DNA of 64,000 nt from Escherichia phage phiEC1. This document shows positions 1-17,438 of this stretch, piece by piece. Position numbers and translations under genes: made by a program. Position 1 is the stretch's first letter; each line of letters opens with the position of its first letter. The stretch is from the sequence record KY608965.1. The stretch is one strand, 5' to 3'. A model generated the notes under the pieces. It was not told where the DNA came from. It saw only the letters and a list, made by a program, of their open reading frames with translations, and did not search any database.

Positions 1-441
1 AAGACCTATACCAGAGATTTTACCATTAATGCTTTTGTATTTGATGAAACCATTATCATTAGCATTACTAAGTGCTTTATCCAGAGAATACGTCTTACCA
101 ATACCAGCTGCACCTGAAATAATGAGTGAACGAATTTTGCCATCGATAATGCCATTCGTCATCATGTTCATTACTTTAAAGCGTTTGTTGATACGAGTTT
201 TCATATCTTCAGTGCTTTCAACAACTGCAACTGGTGATGTCTCAACTCCTTCCATTACGATGTCTGATTTGAAGACCCATACTCCACGTTCAGAACCATC
301 AATCATAACGAAAATTTTACCATCACCTAAGTGGGAACATTCAGGATTAAGCTTTGCCGGGAACCATGTCTTTGTGGCAACATAAGAACCAGAGATTTCG
401 TTATTACGATAGATACCTTTTTTGATTTGAACGTTGAACAT
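1..441 (-). CDS. P-loop NTPase, N-terminal part only (C-terminus lies beyond window start)
   Basis: Manual minus-strand translation from ATG at 441: MFNVQIKKGIYRNNEISG...; Walker A GAAGIGKT; not in ORF track because truncated by window edge. Confidence 0.5.
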   Translation of the reverse strand, partial: MFNVQIKKGIYRNNEISGSYVATKTWFPAKLNPECSHLGDGKIFVMIDGSERGVWVFKSDIVMEGVETSPVAVVESTEDMKTRINKRFKVMNMMTNGIIDGKIRSLIISGAAGIGKTYSLDKALSNANDNGFIKYKSINGKISGIGL

Positions 442-458
442 TTTATTCTCCTCTTGTT

Positions 459-500
459 TTGATAGGTCTATAATAACATATCCTAAAAGCATGTACACTA
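459..500 (-). promoter_or_regulatory. Early promoter cassette (PeSL-like), degenerate copy
   Basis: gataggtctataataacatatcc then gtacac; same layout as the other copies but weaker -35; sits just upstream of the gene starting at 441. Confidence 0.35.
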
Positions 501-549
501 CTTTTTAAAAATATTTTGACCCCCTAAAGGGACCCGAAGGTCCCCACAT

Positions 550-816
550 TTACTTATCGCACTTAGCAACATAATTAGGCATATCACAGAATACGGAGCG
601 TGTAACTACTCGACCCTTTGACCATGCTTCAGTTGCTTGTCCGGCTGTGCTATTAATATAGCTTGATTTAATGTTCTCAATACCCTGAGAATGTGATGCA
701 TTTACCGAACCGTTGGAAGGTGCAGAAGACTGGTTACCACCAGCTCCTGTACCTATGGTAGCACCAACAGAGAATGCCATCATTACTGCGAATAAACCAA
801 TTGCTAATTTTTTCAT
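550..816 (-). CDS. Small secreted protein, unknown function
   Basis: 88 aa ORF; N-terminal signal-peptide-like MKKLAIGLFAVMMAFSVGA; Gly/Ser/Asn-rich mature part. Confidence 0.45.
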   Translation of the reverse strand: MKKLAIGLFAVMMAFSVGATIGTGAGGNQSSAPSNGSVNASHSQGIENIKSSYINSTAGQATEAWSKGRVVTRSVFCDMPNYVAKCDK

Positions 817-843
817 ATTTACCTCAAGTTAAGGGTTATTTAT

Positions 844-1830
844 CTATTTATAGTAAGAATTATGATTTTCGAGATAGACTTGCTCAAGGAAGTCATCCCA
901 GAAACTCATATCTACTTTTTGCTGCATACCGTTCTTAGCGGCTTGTTCTGATGCTTGTTCAACTTGGTCAACAATATCTTCTAGGAATTCTTGTACAGTT
1001 TTAAACGTATGTTTACCAAGCTTAACATCGAGAATAAATGGAGCATCCTGAAGTGGGTAAACCAGGTCGCCGGTTTTGTAAATTTCCAATAATTGAAGTC
1101 CACCACGACATGCATGACTCAATGCTTTCCAGTCAATACCTTCGTTGGCTTCTGCCTTACGAGCACGTTCGCCATAGTTCTCTTCAAGTTTAACCAGGAT
1201 GGCATTGAACTCTTTATTGGTTAACGTGTCTTGGAATTTACGGTCTAACAGACTATAGAATGTTTGCTTACCTGTTTTCTCGTTTTCGGTTTCAACCCAT
1301 GAAGCAAATTCACCTACAGGCAGAACATTCTTCATATGTGATAAACGAATTACTGCACCGTTATCAAAGTATTGTCCCCATTCATTAGAACGTTTAAGGG
1401 CTTGACGAAGAACAGCCAGTCGAGAACCCTTGACACCGTATTTAGAAGCTTGCTTACGGACATACCCTAAATAAGATTTCATGTTAGTGGTATAGAAACG
1501 AGACCTGTTATCTTGAATATACTTCCATACATCAGGCAAATCAGATTTAACTACTAGACTTGGTGGAGTGTGAAGCATATCTAATGCGACGGTTTCACCA
1601 TCCGCAGCTAGTTTAAAGAAATATTTGAGACTATATAACTCATGGTCCACGTCGTCTTTTGTGTTCTTAGAAGATGTGTTATTCGTGTTCTTGCTCATAT
1701 GTTCTTTAACGTTACCGGTCAAAATATCACGAGCATGAGGGACATAAATTTCTTTAAAATCGACGTCAGATTCAGGAGTAGACGTTCCATAAAGGTGGCT
1801 ACCAAAGTAAGCCTTAACAATCGTTTTCAT
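844..1830 (-). CDS. Nucleotidyltransferase-fold protein (Pol-beta superfamily motif)
   Basis: 328 aa; N-terminal G-S x10 D-V-D (FGSHLYGTSTPESDVDF) plus a later acidic VALD; start codon overlaps stop of upstream membrane-protein gene. Confidence 0.5.
   Translation of the reverse strand: MKTIVKAYFGSHLYGTSTPESDVDFKEIYVPHARDILTGNVKEHMSKNTNNTSSKNTKDDVDHELYSLKYFFKLAADGETVALDMLHTPPSLVVKSDLPDVWKYIQDNRSRFYTTNMKSYLGYVRKQASKYGVKGSRLAVLRQALKRSNEWGQYFDNGAVIRLSHMKNVLPVGEFASWVETENEKTGKQTFYSLLDRKFQDTLTNKEFNAILVKLEENYGERARKAEANEGIDWKALSHACRGGLQLLEIYKTGDLVYPLQDAPFILDVKLGKHTFKTVQEFLEDIVDQVEQASEQAAKNGMQQKVDMSFWDDFLEQVYLENHNSYYK
845..852 (-). promoter_or_regulatory. T4-type late promoter motif TATAAATA
   Basis: tatttata on plus = TATAAATA on minus, about 29 nt upstream of the ATG at 816. 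Confidence 0.4.
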
Positions 1831-2303
1831 TATTTAGCCTTATATTCAAGAGTAGGACAGATTTTTTCTTTACGAGCTTTAAGGTATTCACCTATTAATG
1901 ATTTCTTACGTTCAATAGGCTCAAGTCCATTTTTAATTCGTTCTTGGTTTTGTGCAATGAGCTCAATTTCTTTATAATATTTTCTGTCGTTATATTTGTC
2001 TAACAACCAAGACGGACCAATTATCAACCCAACAGAAATAAGAGCCATGACTGCTACAATTAAAATGCCTACGCCAATTGAGGCTGGAACTAATGTCCAT
2101 AGACTGCTAAAAACAAAGAATTTAGTTAAAATTTCATGGCCGATGATTATGACTGCTGCTAAAATCGCAAATCCAATAATTGAAACAGCCAATGCCGGGA
2201 TTAACGTTTTCCAAAAATAAGCACACAACGTTTTCGGACGATTCCATGTACTATTAAACGCGGCATAAATTTTAAAGTGCCAAGAGTTTTCATTGATAAT
2301 CAT
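1830..2303 (-). CDS. Membrane protein (two predicted TM helices), unknown function
   Basis: 157 aa; hydrophobic stretches LIPALAVSIIGFAILAAVIIIG and VPASIGVGILIVAVMALISVGLIIG; basic C-terminal tail. Confidence 0.5.
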   Translation of the reverse strand: MIINENSWHFKIYAAFNSTWNRPKTLCAYFWKTLIPALAVSIIGFAILAAVIIIGHEILTKFFVFSSLWTLVPASIGVGILIVAVMALISVGLIIGPSWLLDKYNDRKYYKEIELIAQNQERIKNGLEPIERKKSLIGEYLKARKEKICPTLEYKAK

Positions 2304-2312
2304 AATAATTCC

Positions 2313-2855
2313 TTATTTCAAAGTTGGGATAATAGAATCGAGATAAGCTTTAAGAGCAACTGCTTCATCTTTGTCTAATGTAACGATATGTTGACGAAGG
2401 TCATCAATTTGGCGAATAACTACAACATCGCCATCTTCATAAGAAGGATTAACGCCTAGGACTGTTGTATAGTCAGGGCGGTCCTGATTTGTAATAAAAG
2501 CATTACGGCATTTAGCCCATTGAAGTTTGGCCTTTTTGGCTGTTTCAGATTCAATGAATTCTTTCACCTTAGTGACGAATGTTTTCCAATTATTAATAGA
2601 AAAACATTCGTCTTCAGTTTCGATATTAACCCCACTATAAAGTCCGTGATAAAAACGAACTTGAAGGTCTTCATTAATGTTAATTACAGATGCATGGCCT
2701 GGTGGATTGAGTTTCAAAATCTTGTCCAGTTCCATAGGAAGAATAGTAGCAGCATCATCTTCTTGTGTCAGAACATACACATAACCACGTTTTTCGATAC
2801 ATAAATCACCAAACAACTCGGTTGTTTCAATTACAGTTTTCATATTATTCACCAA
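2313..2855 (-). CDS. Hypothetical protein
   Basis: 180 aa ORF in tightly packed minus-strand early array. Confidence 0.45.
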   Translation of the reverse strand: MVNNMKTVIETTELFGDLCIEKRGYVYVLTQEDDAATILPMELDKILKLNPPGHASVININEDLQVRFYHGLYSGVNIETEDECFSINNWKTFVTKVKEFIESETAKKAKLQWAKCRNAFITNQDRPDYTTVLGVNPSYEDGDVVVIRQIDDLRQHIVTLDKDEAVALKAYLDSIIPTLK

Positions 2856-3146
2856 TTAAAGTTTCAACAAAATTCACCAAATCATTCAGACAAGCATCAA
2901 CCTGATTTTCATAAAAGTCTTCGTTATCATTTACTGCATGATAAGCTACATCATTCAAATCTGAATCGGCTTCACGTAAGTCACTGATAAGGTCCATCAA
3001 TTTATTAGCTTGTTCACGGGTCATTTTACCATACTCGTTTCAATAAGATTCACTATGCCGTTTACCATGTTATAAGTAAACATCGGATAATTGTATTGTA
3101 CTACAACATAAGCGATAAGCAAAAGTTTCATTTTGTTCTCCGTTCG

Positions 3147-3190
3147 TTTTGATAGGACTACTATAACATAGTCCTACCAAGATGTAAACT
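3147..3190 (-). promoter_or_regulatory. Early promoter cassette (PeSL-like)
   Basis: Inverted repeat gataggactactataacatagtcctac containing a -10-like TATAGT (minus), with GTTTAC -35-like box (gtaaac at 3184-3189 on plus). Confidence 0.5.
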
Positions 3191-3425
3191 ACCGATTGTG
3201 TTTTAAATGTTGATAAAGTTCTTCAACTTGTTTAGGGTCCAAAACAATTAAGTCATTTTCTTGGCGAAGATAAATCCATCCCTTATCCCCAGGGCCATTT
3301 TTACAAAACATCACCGTCGTCATATCATCATCTTCAGCGCTTTCAGGTAAAAGTTCAAGTACACCGTCTTCAGATTTTCCAGTATAATCGTAAAGCATAA
3401 TGTCCTCACATAATCTCGTTAACAT
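3189..3425 (-). CDS. Hypothetical protein
   Basis: 78 aa ORF, acidic. Confidence 0.4.
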   Translation of the reverse strand: MLTRLCEDIMLYDYTGKSEDGVLELLPESAEDDDMTTVMFCKNGPGDKGWIYLRQENDLIVLDPKQVEELYQHLKHNR

Positions 3426-3585
3426 ACATTTGCAATTCGGTGTGGGCGTCGGCCATCTTTTTCATAGCTCTGTTAATGTCGATGTCTCCATCTTCGCAAC
3501 CATGAGCATTTTCCCAATCAGATACCGCATTAGCGTACTCTTCAATCAAAAACATCAACTTAGAAATCTTTTCTTTACGTGTCAT
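3406..3585 (-). CDS. Hypothetical protein (rI.-1 position)
   Basis: Start moved to internal ATG at 3585 (MTRKEKISKL...) with GAGGAG Shine-Dalgarno; the longer ORF-track start would read through the upstream promoter cassette. Confidence 0.4.
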   Translation of the reverse strand: MTRKEKISKLMFLIEEYANAVSDWENAHGCEDGDIDINRAMKKMADAHTELQMYVNEIM

Positions 3586-3604
3586 AACGTTCTCCTCTAG
3601 TAAG

Positions 3605-3641
3605 TAAGGACTACTATAACACAACCTGAGGAAAAGTAAAC
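3605..3641 (-). promoter_or_regulatory. Early promoter cassette (PeSL-like)
   Basis: aaggactactataacacaacc followed by gtaaac at 3636-3641. Confidence 0.45.
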
Positions 3642-3651
3642 TGCTAAATGC

Positions 3652-3680
3652 CAAAAAGCCCCAACCATAAGGAAGGGGCT
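3652..3680 (-). terminator. Rho-independent terminator after rI
   Basis: On minus strand GCCCC-loop-GGGGC hairpin followed by TTTTTGG. Confidence 0.55.
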
Positions 3681-3686
3681 AGTAAA

Positions 3687-3989
3687 TTAGATAGATGTAG
3701 GCTCTAATTTTATTTTCATGAACTCGGCAAATTGTCTGGCAGTTTTTATGCCTTGTTCATGACATTCAAATGCATCATCACAGGGGCTATTTTTGTAATG
3801 CTTTGCCATATACTTATAGAATTTTTCAGAATTCTCGACATTTTGAATTTCAAACAAAGTATATACGTTTTTAATCCCTGATTCCATAAAGTTATCAAAA
3901 TATGGGTCAATATGTGCAGTACCAACGATAGGAGTTGTTGCTGCAAAAAACCCCAGCATCGCCATGACAGCTATCGCTCTTAAGGCCAT
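3687..3989 (-). CDS. rI: Lysis inhibition regulator RI
   Basis: 100 aa with signal-anchor MALRAIAVMAMLGFFA and DPYFDNFMESGI...PCDDAFEC, matching remembered T4 RI; lies next to tk as in T4. Confidence 0.8.
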   Translation of the reverse strand: MALRAIAVMAMLGFFAATTPIVGTAHIDPYFDNFMESGIKNVYTLFEIQNVENSEKFYKYMAKHYKNSPCDDAFECHEQGIKTARQFAEFMKIKLEPTSI

Positions 3990-4001
3990 ATAGGCCTCCT
4001 G

Positions 4002-4214
4002 TTAATTTTGGCCAGTATTTATTTTTCGCCTTTGGACGGCCTTAACATCTGTGAGGTATTTTTCCAGCTTGCGCTTGCGTGTATAATCAGCTTTAGAACC
4101 AGTTTGACGGATATCCTCGTTTAAATGAGAAATAGAATGTCCTAATTCTCTTCGGATTTCATCCAATTGGGTTACAGTAAGATTACGAAGTTGTCTTTCG
4201 TTTAATTGCTGCAT
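4002..4214 (-). CDS. Hypothetical protein (rI.1 position)
   Basis: 70 aa basic ORF between tk and rI. Confidence 0.45.
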
Positions 4215-4237
4215 ATATACCTCTTGGTTAGATATTA

Positions 4238-4245
4238 GTATTTAT
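4238..4245 (-). promoter_or_regulatory. T4-type late promoter motif TATAAATA
   Basis: tatttata on plus, about 24 nt upstream of the ATG at 4214. Confidence 0.4.
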
Positions 4246-4823
4246 AACAACCCTGTCAAATCATTCCAATGCTTCCGGCATAATGACACGTATCTATCGG
4301 TATCACCAATTTCAATTTGACTGCCATCTGTAATTGGAAGTCCATCTTCCGTGACTCTAGCTACCATTGTGGCCTTTTTACCGCAATGACAGACACCTTT
4401 AAGTTCAACAAGCTTATCGGCAATAGCCATTAATGCTTGAGAACCTTCAAATAGATTACCTTTAAAATCTGTTCGTAGTCCATATGCCATTACCGGCACA
4501 TTGTATACGTCAACAATACGACTAAGTTGATACACCTTTTCAGTAGTTAAGAACTGAGCTTCGTCAACAAATACACAGTGAATATCCTTTTGTGCTGCAG
4601 CCCATTTATAGAATTCAAAGATATCCATGTCTTTTGTAATTATATTGGCATCTTGACGAATACCAATACGAGAGACTATTTCACCTTTTGAATCACGAGT
4701 ATCAATAGCCGGTTTAAGAACTAATACACCCATGCCACGTTCTTTATAGTTATGTGCGGCAGTAAGTAATGAAGCAGACTTACCAGCGTTCATAGCGGCA
4801 TAGGTAAAAATTAAACTAGCCAT
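4242..4823 (-). CDS. tk: Thymidine kinase
   Basis: 193 aa; MASLIFTYAAMNAGKSASLL P-loop and C-terminal CHCGKKA...SLCRKHW zinc motif, near-identical to remembered T4 Tk. Confidence 0.95.
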   Translation of the reverse strand: MASLIFTYAAMNAGKSASLLTAAHNYKERGMGVLVLKPAIDTRDSKGEIVSRIGIRQDANIITKDMDIFEFYKWAAAQKDIHCVFVDEAQFLTTEKVYQLSRIVDVYNVPVMAYGLRTDFKGNLFEGSQALMAIADKLVELKGVCHCGKKATMVARVTEDGLPITDGSQIEIGDTDRYVSLCRKHWNDLTGLL

Positions 4824-4831
4824 AAGAGTCC

Positions 4832-5017
4832 TTATTCGGTAATTCGTTCTAGATAATCATCTAATGCCCTTTGAGCATCTTCCAGTTCTTGTGTTGCGAG
4901 CTGTTTTGCCAGTTTAGACGAGAAATACGATGAATGTTCCCATTCATAAGCTTGTTCAGCCAAACGTATTTCATTAGACAAATAAATTATCTCTTCTTTC
5001 TGTTGACGAGTAATCAT
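4832..5017 (-). CDS. Hypothetical protein
   Basis: 61 aa ORF. Confidence 0.35.
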   Translation of the reverse strand: MITRQQKEEIIYLSNEIRLAEQAYEWEHSSYFSSKLAKQLATQELEDAQRALDDYLERITE

Positions 5018-5196
5018 AATGAGTTCACATAATTAATGAGTTCTTGTTCTTTCCTGTCAAATGATTCCAACAATGCTTGATATTCTTCATCTGTTAAAGG
5101 AGCATATTCATCGTACGCATTGGTGGCTGCTTGCTCATCCAATAGGTCATGGATAAGTTCGAACAGTTTAGCTTTCTCTTCTTTAGTCAATTTCAT
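5014..5196 (-). CDS. Hypothetical protein
   Basis: 60 aa ORF, overlapping stop/start with neighbour. Confidence 0.35.
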   Translation of the reverse strand: MKLTKEEKAKLFELIHDLLDEQAATNAYDEYAPLTDEEYQALLESFDRKEQELINYVNSL

Positions 5197-14009: not shown

Positions 14010-14966
14010 TTATTTGAAAGGTTTCACCATATGAAAATTTTCTTTAAACCGTTTGATGTAATCATTTTTGCCGAGCTTATGATACATAGCCACTACTTCA
14101 TAATAGTTCTCGTATGCGTACTCACGGAACCATCCTGACGTGATTGAAGTACAGACTTTTTCTAATGCCATCATGAAACTGGCTTCAGGGTTAATTTCAA
14201 AGTTATTAGGAATCTGAGAACGTTCTAATGCTAGTACACATGATTCTTCGTATACACCGGCCAATTTGACCATTTCCGGTAATGATTCGAACTTCTCGCG
14301 TGAGGTCATGACTTCAGAACCATCTTTCATGTAAAATGTATACGCTGGACGGTCTGTTAGTGCAATGGCTTCGTGAATAGTATCATGGTCATACGTATAG
14401 ATGTCATCTTTAAAGAATGCGCTTTTAGAAGTGTCAAGAACTGGGTGAGCATAGTTCAAGGTTTCTTTCTGGCGTTTCAGCATAATTTCAGTAAGTTCAT
14501 CGTTCAGTGTAACACCTTTACCACGAAGATACTGAATATGGTTCATAGTCTTTAAAAAGAATGGATTATTTTTCTTGAAACGATGGGACATCTTAATTGC
14601 AAGGCACATCTCAGGAGTTGCCCAGTAAAACCCGTTCAAACGGTCTTTAGTCAAATTTTTCTTGGCGTATTTTAAAAGGTCATAAGAAGACGTGAAATCT
14701 TCAGGAGTGAGTTCACCGACTAATTCACGGACATTAGTGATTGCCGGAACAATATATGCTTCAAAATGAGTTTCGCGTCCGTTATGAAAACATTTGAAAA
14801 CCTGGACGTCAGGGTTATCTTGGTGAACATATACACCCATCATTTGATTTTTGAATGCATTCCAAGAACCTTGGTCCGCAATAAAGTCCCAATCGCTATT
14901 TTTGATAGCGCTAGAATCAATAAGGCCGTGATAGTGAAGTGCACGAGAACCAATAACTAACATCAT
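14010..14966 (-). CDS. Hypothetical protein
   Basis: 318 aa ORF. Confidence 0.45.
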   Translation of the reverse strand: MMLVIGSRALHYHGLIDSSAIKNSDWDFIADQGSWNAFKNQMMGVYVHQDNPDVQVFKCFHNGRETHFEAYIVPAITNVRELVGELTPEDFTSSYDLLKYAKKNLTKDRLNGFYWATPEMCLAIKMSHRFKKNNPFFLKTMNHIQYLRGKGVTLNDELTEIMLKRQKETLNYAHPVLDTSKSAFFKDDIYTYDHDTIHEAIALTDRPAYTFYMKDGSEVMTSREKFESLPEMVKLAGVYEESCVLALERSQIPNNFEINPEASFMMALEKVCTSITSGWFREYAYENYYEVVAMYHKLGKNDYIKRFKENFHMVKPFK

Positions 14967-14991
14967 AATATTTTCCTCGAATTTAGATTAC

Positions 14992-15243
14992 TTAAATTTC
15001 ACGACATGCGATATTATATTCATCCCAGAGGTCGTCATGTGAAGCCTCTACCAAAGGAACGATTGTACCGTTTATGTCTTCATTATAAGGACAAATTGTA
15101 CAGTGCGCATCTTCGAATCGGATGCCTTTGTGTTCAGATTTTTTATAACGCATATCGAATATCTTTGCAAACTTTTCACGACTAATAGTTTTAGCAACTA
15201 CTTCGGTTCCGATACTTTCGTAATAAATCATTGTAGACTCCAT
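14992..15243 (-). CDS. Hypothetical protein
   Basis: 83 aa ORF. Confidence 0.4.
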   Translation of the reverse strand: MESTMIYYESIGTEVVAKTISREKFAKIFDMRYKKSEHKGIRFEDAHCTICPYNEDINGTIVPLVEASHDDLWDEYNIACREI

Positions 15244-15250
15244 TTAATTT

Positions 15251-15290
15251 GATAGGACTACTATAACATAGCCCTATCTTGTTGTAAACT
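15251..15290 (-). promoter_or_regulatory. Early promoter cassette (PeSL-like)
   Basis: gataggactactataacatagccctatc with gtaaac at 15285-15290. Confidence 0.5.
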
Positions 15291-15293
15291 GTT

Positions 15294-15491
15294 TTAGCAA
15301 GAATAACTAGATGATACCCAGCCTTGAACAGTAATACTATTATTTGATAACGAGATTGCGTCCTGGAGATTCAGACCTGCGTTATCTTCAATCCACAATG
15401 TAACTTCTTCACGTTCTTCGGTTGCAATTTGGAACAGGTTTTCCAGGGCAGCTACTGCCGTACGTACAGCACAATCTAATTCACGAGACAT
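15294..15491 (-). CDS. Small protein, member of tandem WVSSS..C-tail family
   Basis: 65 aa; C-terminus QGWVSSSYSC. Confidence 0.45.
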   Translation of the reverse strand: MSRELDCAVRTAVAALENLFQIATEEREEVTLWIEDNAGLNLQDAISLSNNSITVQGWVSSSYSC

Positions 15492-15500
15492 ATTATTTCC

Positions 15501-15773
15501 TTAACAAGTGTGAGAAGATGCAACCCAACCGCCATCTTCAAGGCTCAGGTTGTAGTCGTATTGGTAAACGTCGGCCCATTCAGCATAGCCGTTTTTTGTA
15601 CAACGTTCAAGATCGGCTTTAAGCTGTCCGGGTGAATGATAGGTTCCACCCATACCATAAGCTGGATACAAGTCGAATGTTGTGTTTTGTTTATCAGCAA
15701 TTTCTTTGGCAGCCTCAATAGCTGCATAGATTTTTGCTACAGCTTCAGCCAGCTCGGTTTGTTCTTTAGACAT
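15501..15773 (-). CDS. Small protein, member of tandem WVSSS..C-tail family
   Basis: 90 aa; C-terminus GGWVASSHTC; shares G.GGTY/GRTY core with next gene. Confidence 0.45.
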   Translation of the reverse strand: MSKEQTELAEAVAKIYAAIEAAKEIADKQNTTFDLYPAYGMGGTYHSPGQLKADLERCTKNGYAEWADVYQYDYNLSLEDGGWVASSHTC

Positions 15774-15782
15774 AATGATTCC

Positions 15783-16088
15783 TTAGCACAACGCAGAAGA
15801 CGAAACCCAAGCACCTTCAGTAATAACGTAACCATTACCTTCACGCTTAACATCGCCACCATTATTTTCAATTTCATTTTTCATCCACTGAGATACGATT
15901 TCACCCTTAGGATAATAAGTACGACCGCTACCATAATCACCTACAGAAAATGATACGGCATATTGGTCTGCGATCTTTGTTGCTTCTTCTTCGATACGTT
16001 CAGCTTGATTTAGAAGTTTATAAATTGCATCTGAAGCGGATTTGGCATCATTAAACTCTGGTACTTTAATTTCAATAATCTTACTCAT
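15783..16088 (-). CDS. Small protein, member of tandem WVSSS..C-tail family
   Basis: 101 aa; C-terminus GAWVSSSALC. Confidence 0.45.
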   Translation of the reverse strand: MSKIIEIKVPEFNDAKSASDAIYKLLNQAERIEEEATKIADQYAVSFSVGDYGSGRTYYPKGEIVSQWMKNEIENNGGDVKREGNGYVITEGAWVSSSALC

Positions 16089-16444
16089 TTTCTACATTCC
16101 TTAATAAAGTTTTCGATTGTTTCATTTTCACGTCTAGCTAGGAGTTCATTATAACTAATCATTTGAGAAGCGTAAACCTTTTTATTTTTCTTGTTATGGT
16201 TTATAAAATCGTAGTAAAAATAGACTACAGTACAAAAGGATGCTATTGATGCAAAGGCTTGGGTATACCGTAAGTCCTGCCATTGGTCTGTGAATCCACC
16301 AGTGTTACCTATAAATCCTAACACAACGCCGTCAATAAGAAATCCAACTAATCCAAAGGCAAATCCCATGCCGGCGCTCATGATAAAAATTAAAATATTC
16401 TCACCAAGAGAAGGCCATACGGTTAAGAGTTGAGGCTTTTGCAT
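16085..16444 (-). CDS. Small membrane protein with FIKECR C-terminal tail
   Basis: 119 aa; hydrophobic N-terminal half; C-terminus ENFIKECRK. Confidence 0.45.
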   Translation of the reverse strand: MQKPQLLTVWPSLGENILIFIMSAGMGFAFGLVGFLIDGVVLGFIGNTGGFTDQWQDLRYTQAFASIASFCTVVYFYYDFINHNKKNKKVYASQMISYNELLARRENETIENFIKECRK

Positions 16445-16848
16445 CTTATTTCCTTAACGAATTCCATAGCTTCTTCATATTCATACTTTTTAACAGCTTC
16501 ATCATACTGAGCTTGGGCTTTTGCGCACTGAACTTTCCACTCGCGAACTCGAGCTCTGTGATGACGGCCTTGGTGCCAATATCCTGCCCAATTAATAGGC
16601 ATTAATAAAAACGGTACAATAAGTGGTGCGACGAACATTAATGAAAACGCTGCATCAGACGATATAACTTTATTGGAATCTAAAATAGCTCCTATAATCA
16701 TAAAGATTAAAAATGCTAAAGCTAAAATAGGGCCAAATAGTACTTCGTTTGGGATTAATTTACGTTTGTATTCGTATGCCCAGGGCTTAATTGGCATGTA
16801 CAGGGTTGGCTTTGACATATTCTCTACATTCCATAATAAATTGCTCAA
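16423..16848 (-). CDS. Small membrane protein with related C-terminal tail
   Basis: 141 aa; two hydrophobic segments; C-terminus EFVKEIRCKSLNS. Confidence 0.45.
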   Translation of the reverse strand: MSNLLWNVENMSKPTLYMPIKPWAYEYKRKLIPNEVLFGPILALAFLIFMIIGAILDSNKVISSDAAFSLMFVAPLIVPFLLMPINWAGYWHQGRHHRARVREWKVQCAKAQAQYDEAVKKYEYEEAMEFVKEIRCKSLNS

Positions 16849-17410
16849 GGATTAAATTGTTAGTGAAATTAGGACTAACAACCATAGTTTCATAAAGCGC
16901 ATCAATAGCACTTAAAGCATCAACTCTTTTAAGCAAAGGCTCGCCTTCATACATAGTTTCAGAATCGACGATTAACGTAAAGTAATATTTTTTATTATCG
17001 ACTAGAACTTCAGTATCGATATAAAACATATTAGACCTCAGAAGCTTATCTCTAAAACCATAATAATCTTCAGAGCGTTCGCTGATATATTCCCATTCAG
17101 TGTTTAAACAACAAACAGACCATGTAGGAGCAACAAAATCGGTGAATCTAATATCATGGTCTGCAACTAGTTTAGCAATAGCTCCGATATCATGAATCAT
17201 AATACCTGGGGCTAATAAAGATTTTCTGCTATGGCCAGCCGTTTTCTCAGTGGTCTCATAAGAAGCTGACCAGTACCATTTACGTCCAGTTGCAACATAT
17301 CGTAATGAATCAACTAAAGACGTAGGTGGATTTACCTTATTTCGGAACTCTTCGAACATTGAGTCAATATCATTATTTTGGTTTCGCATGTTAACTCCTT
17401 TATTATCCAA
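16787..17410 (-). CDS. Hypothetical protein
   Basis: 207 aa; contains QFIMECREY near C-terminus. Confidence 0.45.
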   Translation of the reverse strand: MDNKGVNMRNQNNDIDSMFEEFRNKVNPPTSLVDSLRYVATGRKWYWSASYETTEKTAGHSRKSLLAPGIMIHDIGAIAKLVADHDIRFTDFVAPTWSVCCLNTEWEYISERSEDYYGFRDKLLRSNMFYIDTEVLVDNKKYYFTLIVDSETMYEGEPLLKRVDALSAIDALYETMVVSPNFTNNLILEQFIMECREYVKANPVHAN

Positions 17411-17438
17411 AAGGAGGACAAAAGTCCTCCGTATTATT

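What the first reader, a model, noticed from the sequence alone, without database searches (positions are those of the whole stretch)
15294..16088. Three tandem paralogs ending in W-V-[SA]-S-S-x-x-C
Consecutive small genes (65, 90 and 101 aa) end with QGWVSSSYSC, GGWVASSHTC and GAWVSSSALC. Their N-terminal regions have diverged, though two share a G.GGTY/GRTY core. The TAA stop plus GGAAAT Shine-Dalgarno explains only the last codon; the WVSSS tail is conserved at protein level. A terminal Cys after a Ser-rich tail could mark a modification or recognition site.
Basis: seen in the sequence. Interest (0 to 1): 0.5.

Follow-up and report, generated by a model that had tools for sequence, protein, structure and literature searches.

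The report
Cys-tailed phage proteins paired with nucleotidyltransferase
Three neighbouring small genes of an RB69-like phage belong to a large, unstudied phage protein family with a conserved Trp-x-x-Ser-Ser-x-x-Cys end, and such genes almost always sit just upstream of a nucleotidyltransferase-like enzyme gene, which points to an undescribed two-part phage system.

Summary
Three adjacent minus-strand ORFs of 101, 90 and 65 aa end in AWVSSSALC, GWVASSHTC and GWVSSSYSC. Their codons differ at synonymous sites, so selection acts on the protein.

The window is an RB69-like Mosigvirus, and the genes correspond to RB69ORF136c-139c. They belong to a phage-restricted family of small acidic proteins. 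An exhaustive search found at least 172 clusters at 50% identity. The family has no Pfam or NCBIfam model, no literature and no PDB fold match. Its hallmark is a C-terminal W-x-[SAP]-S-S-(x0-3)-C.

The key new result is a gene pairing. One to six such genes lie directly upstream of, and co-directional with, a ~300-aa DUF7277-DUF7275 protein (window 14010-14966). This holds in T4-like, rV5-like, Otagovirus and jumbo phages. All 24 evaluable family-anchored loci and about 75 of 80 enzyme-anchored loci show it. That protein has the Pol-beta G-S...D-x-D motif, and its closest solved folds are MenT/AbiEii toxins and ANT/Lnu enzymes.

My best reading is that the tail is the element recognised by this nucleotidyltransferase, probably as an acceptor.

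The parts
15783..16088 (-). Paralog 1, 101 aa (RB69ORF138c+139c equivalent). It has an N-terminal helix, a YGSGRTYYP hairpin and the tail AWVSSSALC.
   Evidence: phrog_899, E=1.8e-22; family HMM E=1.7e-27
15501..15773 (-). Paralog 2, 90 aa (RB69ORF137c equivalent). It has a YGMGGTYH hairpin and the tail GWVASSHTC. The AF2 model has pLDDT 96.6.
   Evidence: (phrog_899)
15294..15491 (-). Paralog 3, 65 aa (RB69ORF136c equivalent). This is a reduced form that lacks the YGxG hairpin but keeps the tail GWVSSSYSC.
   Evidence: phrog_4882; family HMM E=2.6e-4
15786..15809 (-). Tail codons W-V-S-S-S-A-L-C of paralog 1
15504..15527 (-). Tail codons W-V-A-S-S-H-T-C of paralog 2
15297..15320 (-). Tail codons W-V-S-S-S-Y-S-C of paralog 3
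14010..14966 (-). Partner enzyme, 318 aa (RB69ORF134c equivalent). It carries Pfam DUF7277 (N-terminal) and DUF7275 (C-terminal). It has a Pol-beta nucleotidyltransferase fold with G6-S7...D25-x-D27 and E69. The helical C-terminal domain has invariant K125, H128, H194-D195, H198, E240-E241, E248-R249 and C272.
14992..15243 (-). 83-aa ORF (RB69ORF135c equivalent) lying between the tail genes and the enzyme. It has no tail. It is conserved at this position only in T4-like loci, so it is probably an accessory rather than a core part.
   Evidence: (phrog_3723)
16148..16176 (-). Promoter-like site (TTTACG-17-TATAAT) about 60 nt upstream of paralog 1. Consensus match only.
   Evidence: sites not enriched over shuffles
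15260..15288 (-). Promoter-like site (TTTACA-17-TATAGT with TG) in the only sizeable intergenic gap, upstream of the 83-aa ORF and the enzyme. Consensus match only.

Best explanation
The three genes are paralogous members of a phage-restricted family of small acidic alpha/beta proteins. These proteins work together with the nucleotidyltransferase-fold enzyme encoded just downstream (window 14010-14966).

The conserved C-terminal W-x-x-S-S-(x0-3)-C tail is the part of each small protein that this enzyme recognises. On this reading Trp and the terminal Cys/carboxylate act as anchors. One of the two invariant Ser hydroxyls is then presented to the G-S/D-x-D active site and is most likely O-nucleotidylylated. 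Alternatively, the tail only docks and a Tyr of the YGxGxTYY hairpin is the acceptor, as in known protein-modifying Pol-beta enzymes.

The variable, acidic bodies and linkers of the 1-6 paralogs would then give different client or effector specificities.

Shown: paralogy, protein-level conservation of the tail, the family's breadth, the near-obligate gene pairing, and the enzyme's fold and catalytic motif.

Inferred: physical interaction, the role of the tail in it, and the chemistry.
For: (1) The tail is the most conserved feature of the family. In a 148-sequence alignment only W, S and C are invariant and the second S is over 90% conserved. 186 of 199 retrieved proteins carry the motif, 178 of them exactly at the C-terminus.

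(2) Reduced paralogs lose the YGxG hairpin but keep the tail.

(3) Gene pairing, anchored on the small family by a DNA pattern: 18 of 25 loci have the enzyme directly downstream on the same strand. Six of the other seven are cut at that end, but they lie on contigs where the enzyme is found.

(4) Gene pairing, anchored on the enzyme: 70 of 80 loci have family-HMM hits upstream. Of 5,788 ORFs in these loci, 198 carry the tail, and every one is upstream of the enzyme and co-directional with it. Divergent tails in four more loci bring the total to about 75 of 80.

(5) The pairing holds in unrelated genome backgrounds where no other neighbour is shared: Mosigvirus and other T4-likes, ESCO5 (Phapecoctavirus), phiPsa347 (Otagovirus), Acinetobacter phage Melin, Shewanella Thanatos-2, and ~370-kb jumbo contigs.

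(7) Distant enzyme homologs without tail genes (Gordonia, Streptomyces and Vibrio phages) keep the catalytic residues. They lack R129, H174, C272 and S277, which are fixed in the tail-associated clade. This suggests enzyme-side adaptation to the tail.

(8) Extra internal W-x-[SAPD]-S copies occur in the linker of 37 of 186 members, against 3.2 expected. One subtype carries an internal DW(L/N)xSSCYGE as well as a terminal W-x-x-S-S-C. This is the behaviour of a short linear recognition motif.
Against: There is no direct evidence of binding or modification.

Known protein-directed Pol-beta nucleotidyltransferases (GlnD, GlnE, DrrA, MntA) modify Tyr, not Ser (my knowledge, not tested here).

The closest solved folds, MenT and AbiEii, act on tRNA 3' ends (PMC10435456). 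Distant homologs of the enzyme sit beside RNA ligase or tRNA genes. RNA may therefore be the real substrate and the small proteins only regulators.

In the AF2 monomer model the tail is folded onto the domain (strand 81-85, helical turn 86-89, pLDDT about 91) rather than free.

The Ser-to-Cys spacing varies from 0 to 3 residues, which is loose for a precise active-site register.

About 5 of 80 enzyme loci lack any tail gene.
Confidence: 0.4

Rival explanations
1. The small proteins are antitoxin-like regulators. They would be inhibitors (pseudo-substrates or nucleic-acid mimics) of a MenT/AbiEii-like tRNA nucleotidyltransferase. The acidic body would occupy the RNA-binding groove. The tail would plug the active site without being modified, or would ligate its metal through the terminal thiolate/carboxylate.
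For: The gene order, small gene(s) upstream of the NTase, matches MenAT/AbiE modules, and MenA1 is a 68-aa protein that blocks MenT1 active sites (PMC10435456).

The enzyme's best structural matches are MenT1, MenT3 and MenT4, and a distant homolog gives a weak AbiEii Pfam hit (E=0.018).

The family is strongly acidic: median net charge -9, pI 4.46.

Against: Up to five or six distinct paralog types are stably maintained per single enzyme across genera, which is unnecessary for inhibiting one enzyme.

The module is essentially absent from bacterial genomes: 5 MAG contigs among 185,579 species. It sits in virulent phages, where addiction or abortive-infection logic does not apply.

Tail-less homologs of the enzyme exist without any obvious inhibitor.
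Confidence: 0.25
2. The small proteins are targeting adaptors. The constant tail would dock each one to the enzyme. The divergent body and linker would bind different host or phage targets (proteins or RNAs), which the enzyme would then nucleotidylylate.
For: The architecture is a constant tail on a hypervariable acidic linker of 5-54 residues.

Several conserved paralog types accompany one enzyme.

The genes lie in a hyperplastic early-gene region between e.2 and e.3.
Against: Most of the body (the helix ending in IADE and the YGMGGTYYP hairpin) is itself conserved rather than diversifying.

No target is known, and nothing here distinguishes docking from being the substrate.
Confidence: 0.15
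3. The tail has an intrinsic role unrelated to the neighbouring enzyme, such as fold stability, or a metal, Fe-S or disulfide site formed by terminal cysteines in an oligomer. Adjacency would then reflect only co-inheritance or co-expression.
For: AF2 places the tail within the folded domain with high confidence.

86 of 186 members have a single Cys, the terminal one, which would fit an inter-subunit site.
Against: Pairing with the enzyme persists across unrelated phage lineages in which all other neighbours differ. No tail-bearing ORF was found anywhere else in 80 loci.

Enzyme residues co-vary with the presence of tail genes.

Internal repeats of the motif in disordered acidic linkers are not explained by a fold requirement.
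Confidence: 0.1
4. The tail undergoes RiPP-like chemistry. A tail Ser would be activated (nucleotidylylated or phosphorylated) and eliminated to dehydroalanine. The terminal Cys would then add to it to give a lanthionine-type C-terminal ring (Ser i to Cys i+3). Alternatively the terminal Cys would be decarboxylated as in AviCys peptides.
For: S-x-x-C with a C-terminal Cys has the spacing of common lanthionine and AviCys rings (my knowledge).

A conserved enzyme with an extra conserved His/Asp/Glu-rich domain sits next door.
Against: No dehydratase, cyclase, HFCD decarboxylase or radical-SAM gene is in the neighbourhood.

The proteins are predicted to be folded domains, not leader-core peptides.

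The short subtype W-x-x-S-S-C leaves no room for an i+3 ring.

Pol-beta enzymes are not known to do this.
Confidence: 0.05

Closest known systems
MenAT / AbiE nucleotidyltransferase toxin-antitoxin modules (MenT1-MenA1, MenT3/TglT, AbiEii-AbiEi; DUF1814)
   Different: The window enzyme gives no Pfam AbiEii hit; only a weak E=0.018 hit appears on a distant homolog. The module is phage-restricted rather than chromosomal. There are 1-6 partner paralogs per enzyme. The partners form a distinct family with a signature W-x-x-S-S-x-x-C tail and a fold with no PDB match. Toxicity and tRNA activity are untested.
Protein-nucleotidylylating Pol-beta enzymes with a dedicated protein client (GlnD-PII, GlnE-glutamine synthetase, MntA-HepT)
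   Same: A Pol-beta nucleotidyltransferase is encoded with, or acts on, a small dedicated protein. In MntA-HepT the two are neighbours in an operon. The enzyme has an additional conserved His/Asp-rich helical domain, loosely reminiscent of the NTase plus HD layout of GlnD.
Small-molecule O-nucleotidyltransferases ANT(2'')-Ia and LnuA
   Different: Those enzymes are about 160-180 aa, act on antibiotics, and have no partner proteins. The phage enzyme is about 300 aa with a much larger conserved C-terminal domain.
RlaP-type RNA-ligase-associated Pol-beta nucleotidyltransferases of phages (Burroughs and Aravind; discussed in PMC7824862)
   Same: Both are phage-encoded Pol-beta NTases. Distant DUF7275 homologs lie next to RNA ligase genes (Streptomyces phage TunaTartare, roseophage DSS3_PM1) or tRNA genes.
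   Different: No Pfam RlaP hit was found. In the tail-associated clade the conserved neighbour is the tail family, not an RNA ligase.
Lanthipeptide / AviCys RiPP precursors
   Same: The C-terminal Ser-x-x-Cys spacing, with Cys as the last residue.
   Different: These are folded 60-140-aa proteins rather than leader-core peptides. No Lan or HFCD enzymes are nearby. See the rival explanation.

Membership tests
W-x-x-S-S-(x0-3)-C tail family (PHROG phrog_899 / phrog_4882; no Pfam entry) | Small (about 60-140 aa), acidic protein | tested here: met
   The three proteins are 65, 90 and 101 aa with pI 4.05-4.69. The family median pI is 4.46.
W-x-x-S-S-(x0-3)-C tail family (PHROG phrog_899 / phrog_4882; no Pfam entry) | C-terminal W-x-[SAP]-S-S-x-x-C ending the protein | tested here: met
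   All three window proteins have it. So do 186 of 199 retrieved homologs.
W-x-x-S-S-(x0-3)-C tail family (PHROG phrog_899 / phrog_4882; no Pfam entry) | N-terminal helix ending in IAD-like residues, followed by a YG(M/S)G(G/R)TY(Y/H) beta-hairpin | tested here: met
   Met for the 90- and 101-aa proteins and absent from the 65-aa protein. Hairpin-less members are common elsewhere.
W-x-x-S-S-(x0-3)-C tail family (PHROG phrog_899 / phrog_4882; no Pfam entry) | Encoded upstream of, and co-directional with, a DUF7277-DUF7275 gene | tested here: met
   The window enzyme at 14010-14966 lies 328 nt downstream of the 65-aa gene. The general rule is shown.
MenAT / AbiE (DUF1814) nucleotidyltransferase toxin-antitoxin | Toxin matches Pfam AbiEii/DUF1814 (PF08843) | tested here: not met
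   The window enzyme gives no hit at E<=0.1. A distant homolog gives only E=0.018, below the cut-off.
MenAT / AbiE (DUF1814) nucleotidyltransferase toxin-antitoxin | Pol-beta motifs I/II (G-[GS]...D-x-[DE] plus a third carboxylate) and a MenT-like fold | tested here: met
MenAT / AbiE (DUF1814) nucleotidyltransferase toxin-antitoxin | Toxicity of the NTase, neutralised by the upstream partner; tRNA 3'-end extension | not testable with these tools
   This requires expression and tRNA assays.
MenAT / AbiE (DUF1814) nucleotidyltransferase toxin-antitoxin | Resident in bacterial chromosomes, plasmids or defence islands | tested here: not met
   Only 5 MAG contigs among one genome each of 185,579 species, against 733 of 50,697 phage records.
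YefM/Phd/RelB-type antitoxin fold (small protein) | Significant structural match | tested here: inconclusive
Lanthipeptide / AviCys RiPP precursor | Neighbouring dehydratase/cyclase or HFCD decarboxylase | tested here: not met
   No such Pfam or PHROG hit among the 8 ORFs scanned across window 14010-17410. RB69's own annotation names none among the flanking genes. No other gene family is shared across related loci.
Lanthipeptide / AviCys RiPP precursor | Short leader-core peptide with an unstructured core | tested here: not met
   The AF2 model is a compact domain with pLDDT 96.6 that includes the tail.
Protein-nucleotidylylation pair (GlnD-PII / MntA-HepT type) | Covalent NMP on a defined residue of the partner protein | not testable with these tools
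   This requires mass spectrometry or radiolabel assays.

The most novel reading that the evidence does not exclude
The module is a previously unrecognised phage protein-nucleotidylylation system. A MenT-like Pol-beta enzyme would covalently modify a serine (or the terminal cysteine/carboxylate) in the W-x-x-S-S-x-x-C tail of a diversified set of 1-6 small acidic client proteins. This would switch them on or off as host-takeover or anti-defence effectors. If true, it would be the first Ser/Cys-tail-directed nucleotidylylation by this enzyme class, and a new short linear 'tag' in phage biology.
Probability: 0.25. Interest if true: 0.8.

Novelty: new variant of a known kind. Interest (0 to 1): 0.62.

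Why it matters
T4-like phages are among the best-studied viruses, yet this module has no name, no Pfam entry for the small proteins and no literature. It is present in at least 733 of 50,697 sequenced phage records and in many metagenomic contigs.

The analysis turns three anonymous ORFs into a defined, testable two-component system: a conserved peptide tail plus a nucleotidyltransferase-fold enzyme related to tRNA-modifying toxins. It lies in an early-gene, hyperplastic region typical of host-takeover and counter-defence functions.

If the tail is a modification tag or an active-site plug, it would reveal a new way in which phages deploy or control a MenT-like enzyme. It could also provide a compact recognition motif for tool building.

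It also gives annotators a simple rule. ORFs ending in W-x-x-S-S-x-x-C upstream of DUF7277/DUF7275 belong together. Several current annotations of the enzyme ("prohead scaffold", "baseplate hub") are unsupported by its Pfam domains, catalytic motif and fold.

Tried and rejected
1. Nucleotide-level explanation (stop codon plus Shine-Dalgarno). Rejected: synonymous codons differ, and only 2 of 3 junctions have TAA-GGAA.

3. Literature. Searches for phrog_899, RB69ORF136c-139c, RB69ORF134c, DUF7275/DUF7277 and PF23940/PF23942 found nothing relevant. Broader searches on phage NTase and C-terminal cysteine found no description of this module.

4. The search for related loci with the small-family alignment failed because no conserved 7-10-residue stretch exists. 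I replaced it with a degenerate DNA pattern for YGMGGTYY.

5. The 'sulfurtransferase' and 'host specificity protein' annotations seen in related genomes fall on the e.4 and e.6 homologs, not on this module.

6. N-terminal extensions of longer family members were inspected for extra domains. Only coiled-coil-like helices were seen.

8. The promoter/terminator scan gave plausible early-type promoter matches, but no enrichment over shuffles.

Full report
**Observation**

The window region 15294-16088 holds three consecutive minus-strand ORFs of 101 aa (15783-16088), 90 aa (15501-15773) and 65 aa (15294-15491). They end in EGAWVSSSALC, DGGWVASSHTC and VQGWVSSSYSC.

A three-way alignment leaves G-W-V-x-S-S-x-x-C invariant at the end. 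The two longer proteins share YG(S/M)G(R/G)TY. Pairwise BLASTP gives E=1e-6 (90 vs 101), 0.002 (65 vs 101) and 7e-4 (65 vs 90).

Among 409 six-frame ORFs of at least 35 aa in the window, only these three carry the tail.

The eight tail codons are only 15-16/24 nt identical between paralogs. They use different synonymous codons, for example TCT vs AGT for Ser and TGC vs TGT for Cys. The TAA-GGAA junction follows only two of the three genes.

**Genomic identity**

The window is 96-97% identical to RB69-like Mosigvirus genomes. In RB69 the genes are ORF136c (65 aa), ORF137c (90 aa) and ORF138c+139c, all annotated hypothetical. ORF138c+139c is the 101-aa gene, split in RB69. The genes lie between e.2 and e.3.

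**The family**

- Pfam, NCBIfam and PADLOC give no meaningful hit. PHROGs places the 90- and 101-aa proteins in phrog_899 and the 65-aa protein in phrog_4882, both of unknown function.
- An exhaustive profile search of 1.84 billion cluster representatives found 172 clusters at E<=1e-3. Nearly all are 65-143 aa.
- Of 199 proteins retrieved, 186 end in W-x-[SAP]-S-[ST]-x-x-C, and 178 of these have Cys as the very last residue.
- In a 148-sequence alignment with 18% mean column identity, the only invariant columns are W83, S86 and C90. S87, Y39, G40, G42, Y45 and A26 are over 90% conserved.
- The proteins are strongly acidic (median net charge -9, pI 4.46). A variable linker of 5-54 residues, rich in Asp/Glu, separates the hairpin from the tail.
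- That linker contains extra W-x-[SAPD]-S copies in 37 of 186 proteins, against 3.2 expected from shuffles.
- A further subtype, common in T4-like and rV5-like phages, has an internal DW(L/N)xSSCYGE and ends in W-x-x-S-S-C with no spacer.
- The general motif is therefore W-x-x-S-S-(x0-3)-C.

**Structure of the small protein**

AlphaFold2 on the 90-aa protein with this alignment gives pLDDT 96.6. The model has a long N-terminal helix, a beta-hairpin carrying YGMGG in its loop, two short helices, then a strand (G-W-V-A-S) and a helical turn (S-H-T-C).

**The decisive context result**

I first searched viral contigs with a degenerate DNA pattern for YGMGGTYY, which is independent of any neighbour. 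This returned 24 loci from contigs of 7 to 389 kb.
- A family HMM showed that about two thirds of them carry 2-3 tandem paralogs. These include reduced forms that keep only the tail.
- Clustering all neighbouring ORFs showed one family present in 18 of 25 loci (the 24 plus the window). It always lies directly downstream on the same strand. It is the homolog of window 14010-14966, a 318-aa protein with Pfam DUF7277 and DUF7275.
- Six of the seven remaining loci are simply cut at that end, and they lie on contigs where the enzyme was later found.

I then ran the reverse test, on 80 loci anchored on the enzyme.
- 70 have family-HMM hits upstream.
- Of 5,788 six-frame ORFs in these loci, 198 end in the tail motif. 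Every one is upstream of the enzyme and co-directional with it. There are 1-5 per locus by this count and up to six by HMM.
- Four of the apparent negatives carry divergent tails such as ...WVQSSC...NWDSSTC or ...WFPSDVNC.
- No other gene family is shared across these backgrounds.

Cultured examples include the following:
- ESCO5: gp205, gp207 and gp208 with gp209.
- phiPsa347: gp082, gp084 and gp085 with gp081.
- Acinetobacter phage Melin: gp073 with gp069.
- Shewanella phage Thanatos-2: TH2_096 with TH2_097.

The enzyme occurs in 733 of 50,697 phage records. In one genome each of 185,579 bacterial and archaeal species it appears on only 5 contigs, all from MAGs. The module is therefore phage-restricted.

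**The partner enzyme**

A 48-sequence alignment shows the following invariant residues:
- G6-S7, D25-x-D27 and E69.
- K125, H128, H174-P175, H194-D195, H198, E240-E241 and E248-R249.
- The stretch K-V-C272-T-S-I-T-S-G-W-F-R.

The AF2 model (pLDDT 91.6) puts G-S at the first strand-helix junction, D-x-D on the next strand and E69 on a later strand. About 190 mostly helical residues follow.

The protein is thus a Pol-beta-superfamily nucleotidyltransferase whose nearest solved relatives are the MenT/AbiEii toxins. Those toxins extend tRNA 3' ends and are neutralised by upstream-encoded antitoxins, one of which (MenA1) is a 68-aa active-site blocker (PMC10435456).

Distant DUF7275 homologs (27-35% identity) in Gordonia, Streptomyces, roseobacter and Vibrio phages have no tail genes upstream. 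They sit beside RNA ligase or tRNA genes. All four keep the NTase residues. R129 and H174 are replaced in all four. C272 and S277 are replaced in three of them, the exception being roseophage DSS3_PM1. These four residues are fixed in the tail-associated clade.

**Interpretation**

Firmly shown:
- The three ORFs are paralogs of a large phage-specific family.
- The tail is the family's most constrained feature.
- The family is genetically coupled to a nucleotidyltransferase-fold enzyme.

The mechanism is inferred. I favour (0.4) the reading that the tail is the enzyme's recognition element, with a Ser hydroxyl as the probable acceptor. The reasons are:
- The enzyme class transfers NMP to hydroxyl groups.
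- The tail behaves like a reiterated short linear motif.
- Tail-only paralogs persist.
- Enzyme residues co-vary with the presence of tail genes.

Known protein-directed Pol-beta enzymes modify Tyr. The invariant Tyr residues of the YGxGxTYY hairpin are therefore an alternative acceptor, with the tail acting as the docking element.

The main rival (0.25) is an antitoxin-like inhibitor or nucleic-acid mimic of a tRNA-directed enzyme. The MenAT analogy, the acidity and the RNA-repair context of distant homologs support it. The stable maintenance of up to five or six distinct paralog types per enzyme, and the absence of the module from bacteria, argue against it.

The other readings and their confidences are:
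- Adaptor (0.15).
- Enzyme-independent structural or metal role (0.1).
- RiPP-like ring formation (0.05).

**Novelty and score**

No publication or curated family describes the small proteins or the pairing. The enzyme exists only as two DUFs.

The module resembles known NTase-plus-small-partner systems. It differs from them in its partner family, its multiplicity, its signature tail and its phage restriction. I therefore rate it a new variant of a known kind, with interest 0.62.

Noticed in passing
L001 (RB69, AY303349) 4787-5093; window 15783-16088: In the RB69 reference genome the ortholog of the 101-aa gene is split into ORF138c and ORF139c by a frameshift. Its tail reads AWVSSPALC (Ser to Pro), so that copy looks like a pseudogene. 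Another Mosigvirus (mar005P1, P0046) has a frameshifted 75-aa version of the 90-aa paralog. Individual paralogs therefore seem dispensable.
   Followed up: partly
window 14992-15243 (-): An 83-aa ORF (phrog_3723) with a conserved RFEDAHC...PY.E segment sits between the tail genes and the enzyme. Homologs occupy the same slot only in T4-like loci. It has no tail and no known domain.
   Followed up: partly
window 14010-14966 (-), residues 272-279: The enzyme's invariant stretch C-T-S-I-T-S-G-W is the mirror image of the partner tail W-x-S-S-S-x-x-C, with the same 7-residue Cys-Trp spacing and a Ser/Thr-rich middle. C272 is replaced by Ile in the Gordonia, Streptomyces and Vibrio K354 homologs, which have no tail genes, but is retained in roseophage DSS3_PM1. 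W279 is Arg in a tail-less subclade (L066, L067, L069, L095). The mirror symmetry may be coincidence.
   Followed up: partly
L114 (Streptomyces phage TunaTartare) 2162-3636; L115 (DSS3_PM1) 265-3891; L121 (Thanatos-2) 3504-4606; L113 (Gordonia phage Cucurbita) 2809-5355: Distant or related DUF7275 enzymes lie next to RNA ligase and metallophosphoesterase genes, or directly beside tRNA genes. In Thanatos-2, tRNA-Arg(TCT) and tRNA-Met follow the enzyme. RB69 has the same two tRNA genes about 5 kb away. This hints at an RNA/tRNA-related activity.
   Followed up: partly
Klebsiella phage vB_KpnM-VAC36, Yersinia phage vB_YenM_P8; L026 3427-3822; L027 4443-5036: Public annotations look wrong. The enzyme is labelled 'prohead assembly scaffold protein' or 'baseplate hub subunit' in some genomes and 'putative nucleotidyltransferase' in a few others. 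The e.4 homolog is labelled 'sulfurtransferase' and the e.6 homolog 'host specificity protein'.
   Followed up: partly
window 17413-17430 (both strands): A perfect 7-bp GC-rich hairpin (GGAGGAC-TTTT-GTCCTCC) with T-runs on both strands. It looks like a bidirectional terminator and lies between the e.5-like and e.6-like genes.
   Followed up: no
window 16085-16088: The start codon of the 101-aa gene overlaps the stop codon of the upstream e.3 homolog (ATGA). This suggests translational coupling within the early-gene operon.
   Followed up: no
L105 413-1901; L102 2395-3999; L070/L072/L073 about 1790-3900: Some metagenomic phages carry five or six tail-bearing paralogs in a row. Their terminal variants are unusual (e.g. 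...WEGSAC, ...WYSSHC, ...WISSSICW, ...WLSSDAGC), which shows how far the tail can drift.
   Followed up: no
L108-L112 (genome contigs): The only 'bacterial' hits for the enzyme are five MAG contigs (Saccharibacteria, Bacteriovoracales, unclassified). These are probably phage contigs binned with bacterial genomes.
   Followed up: no
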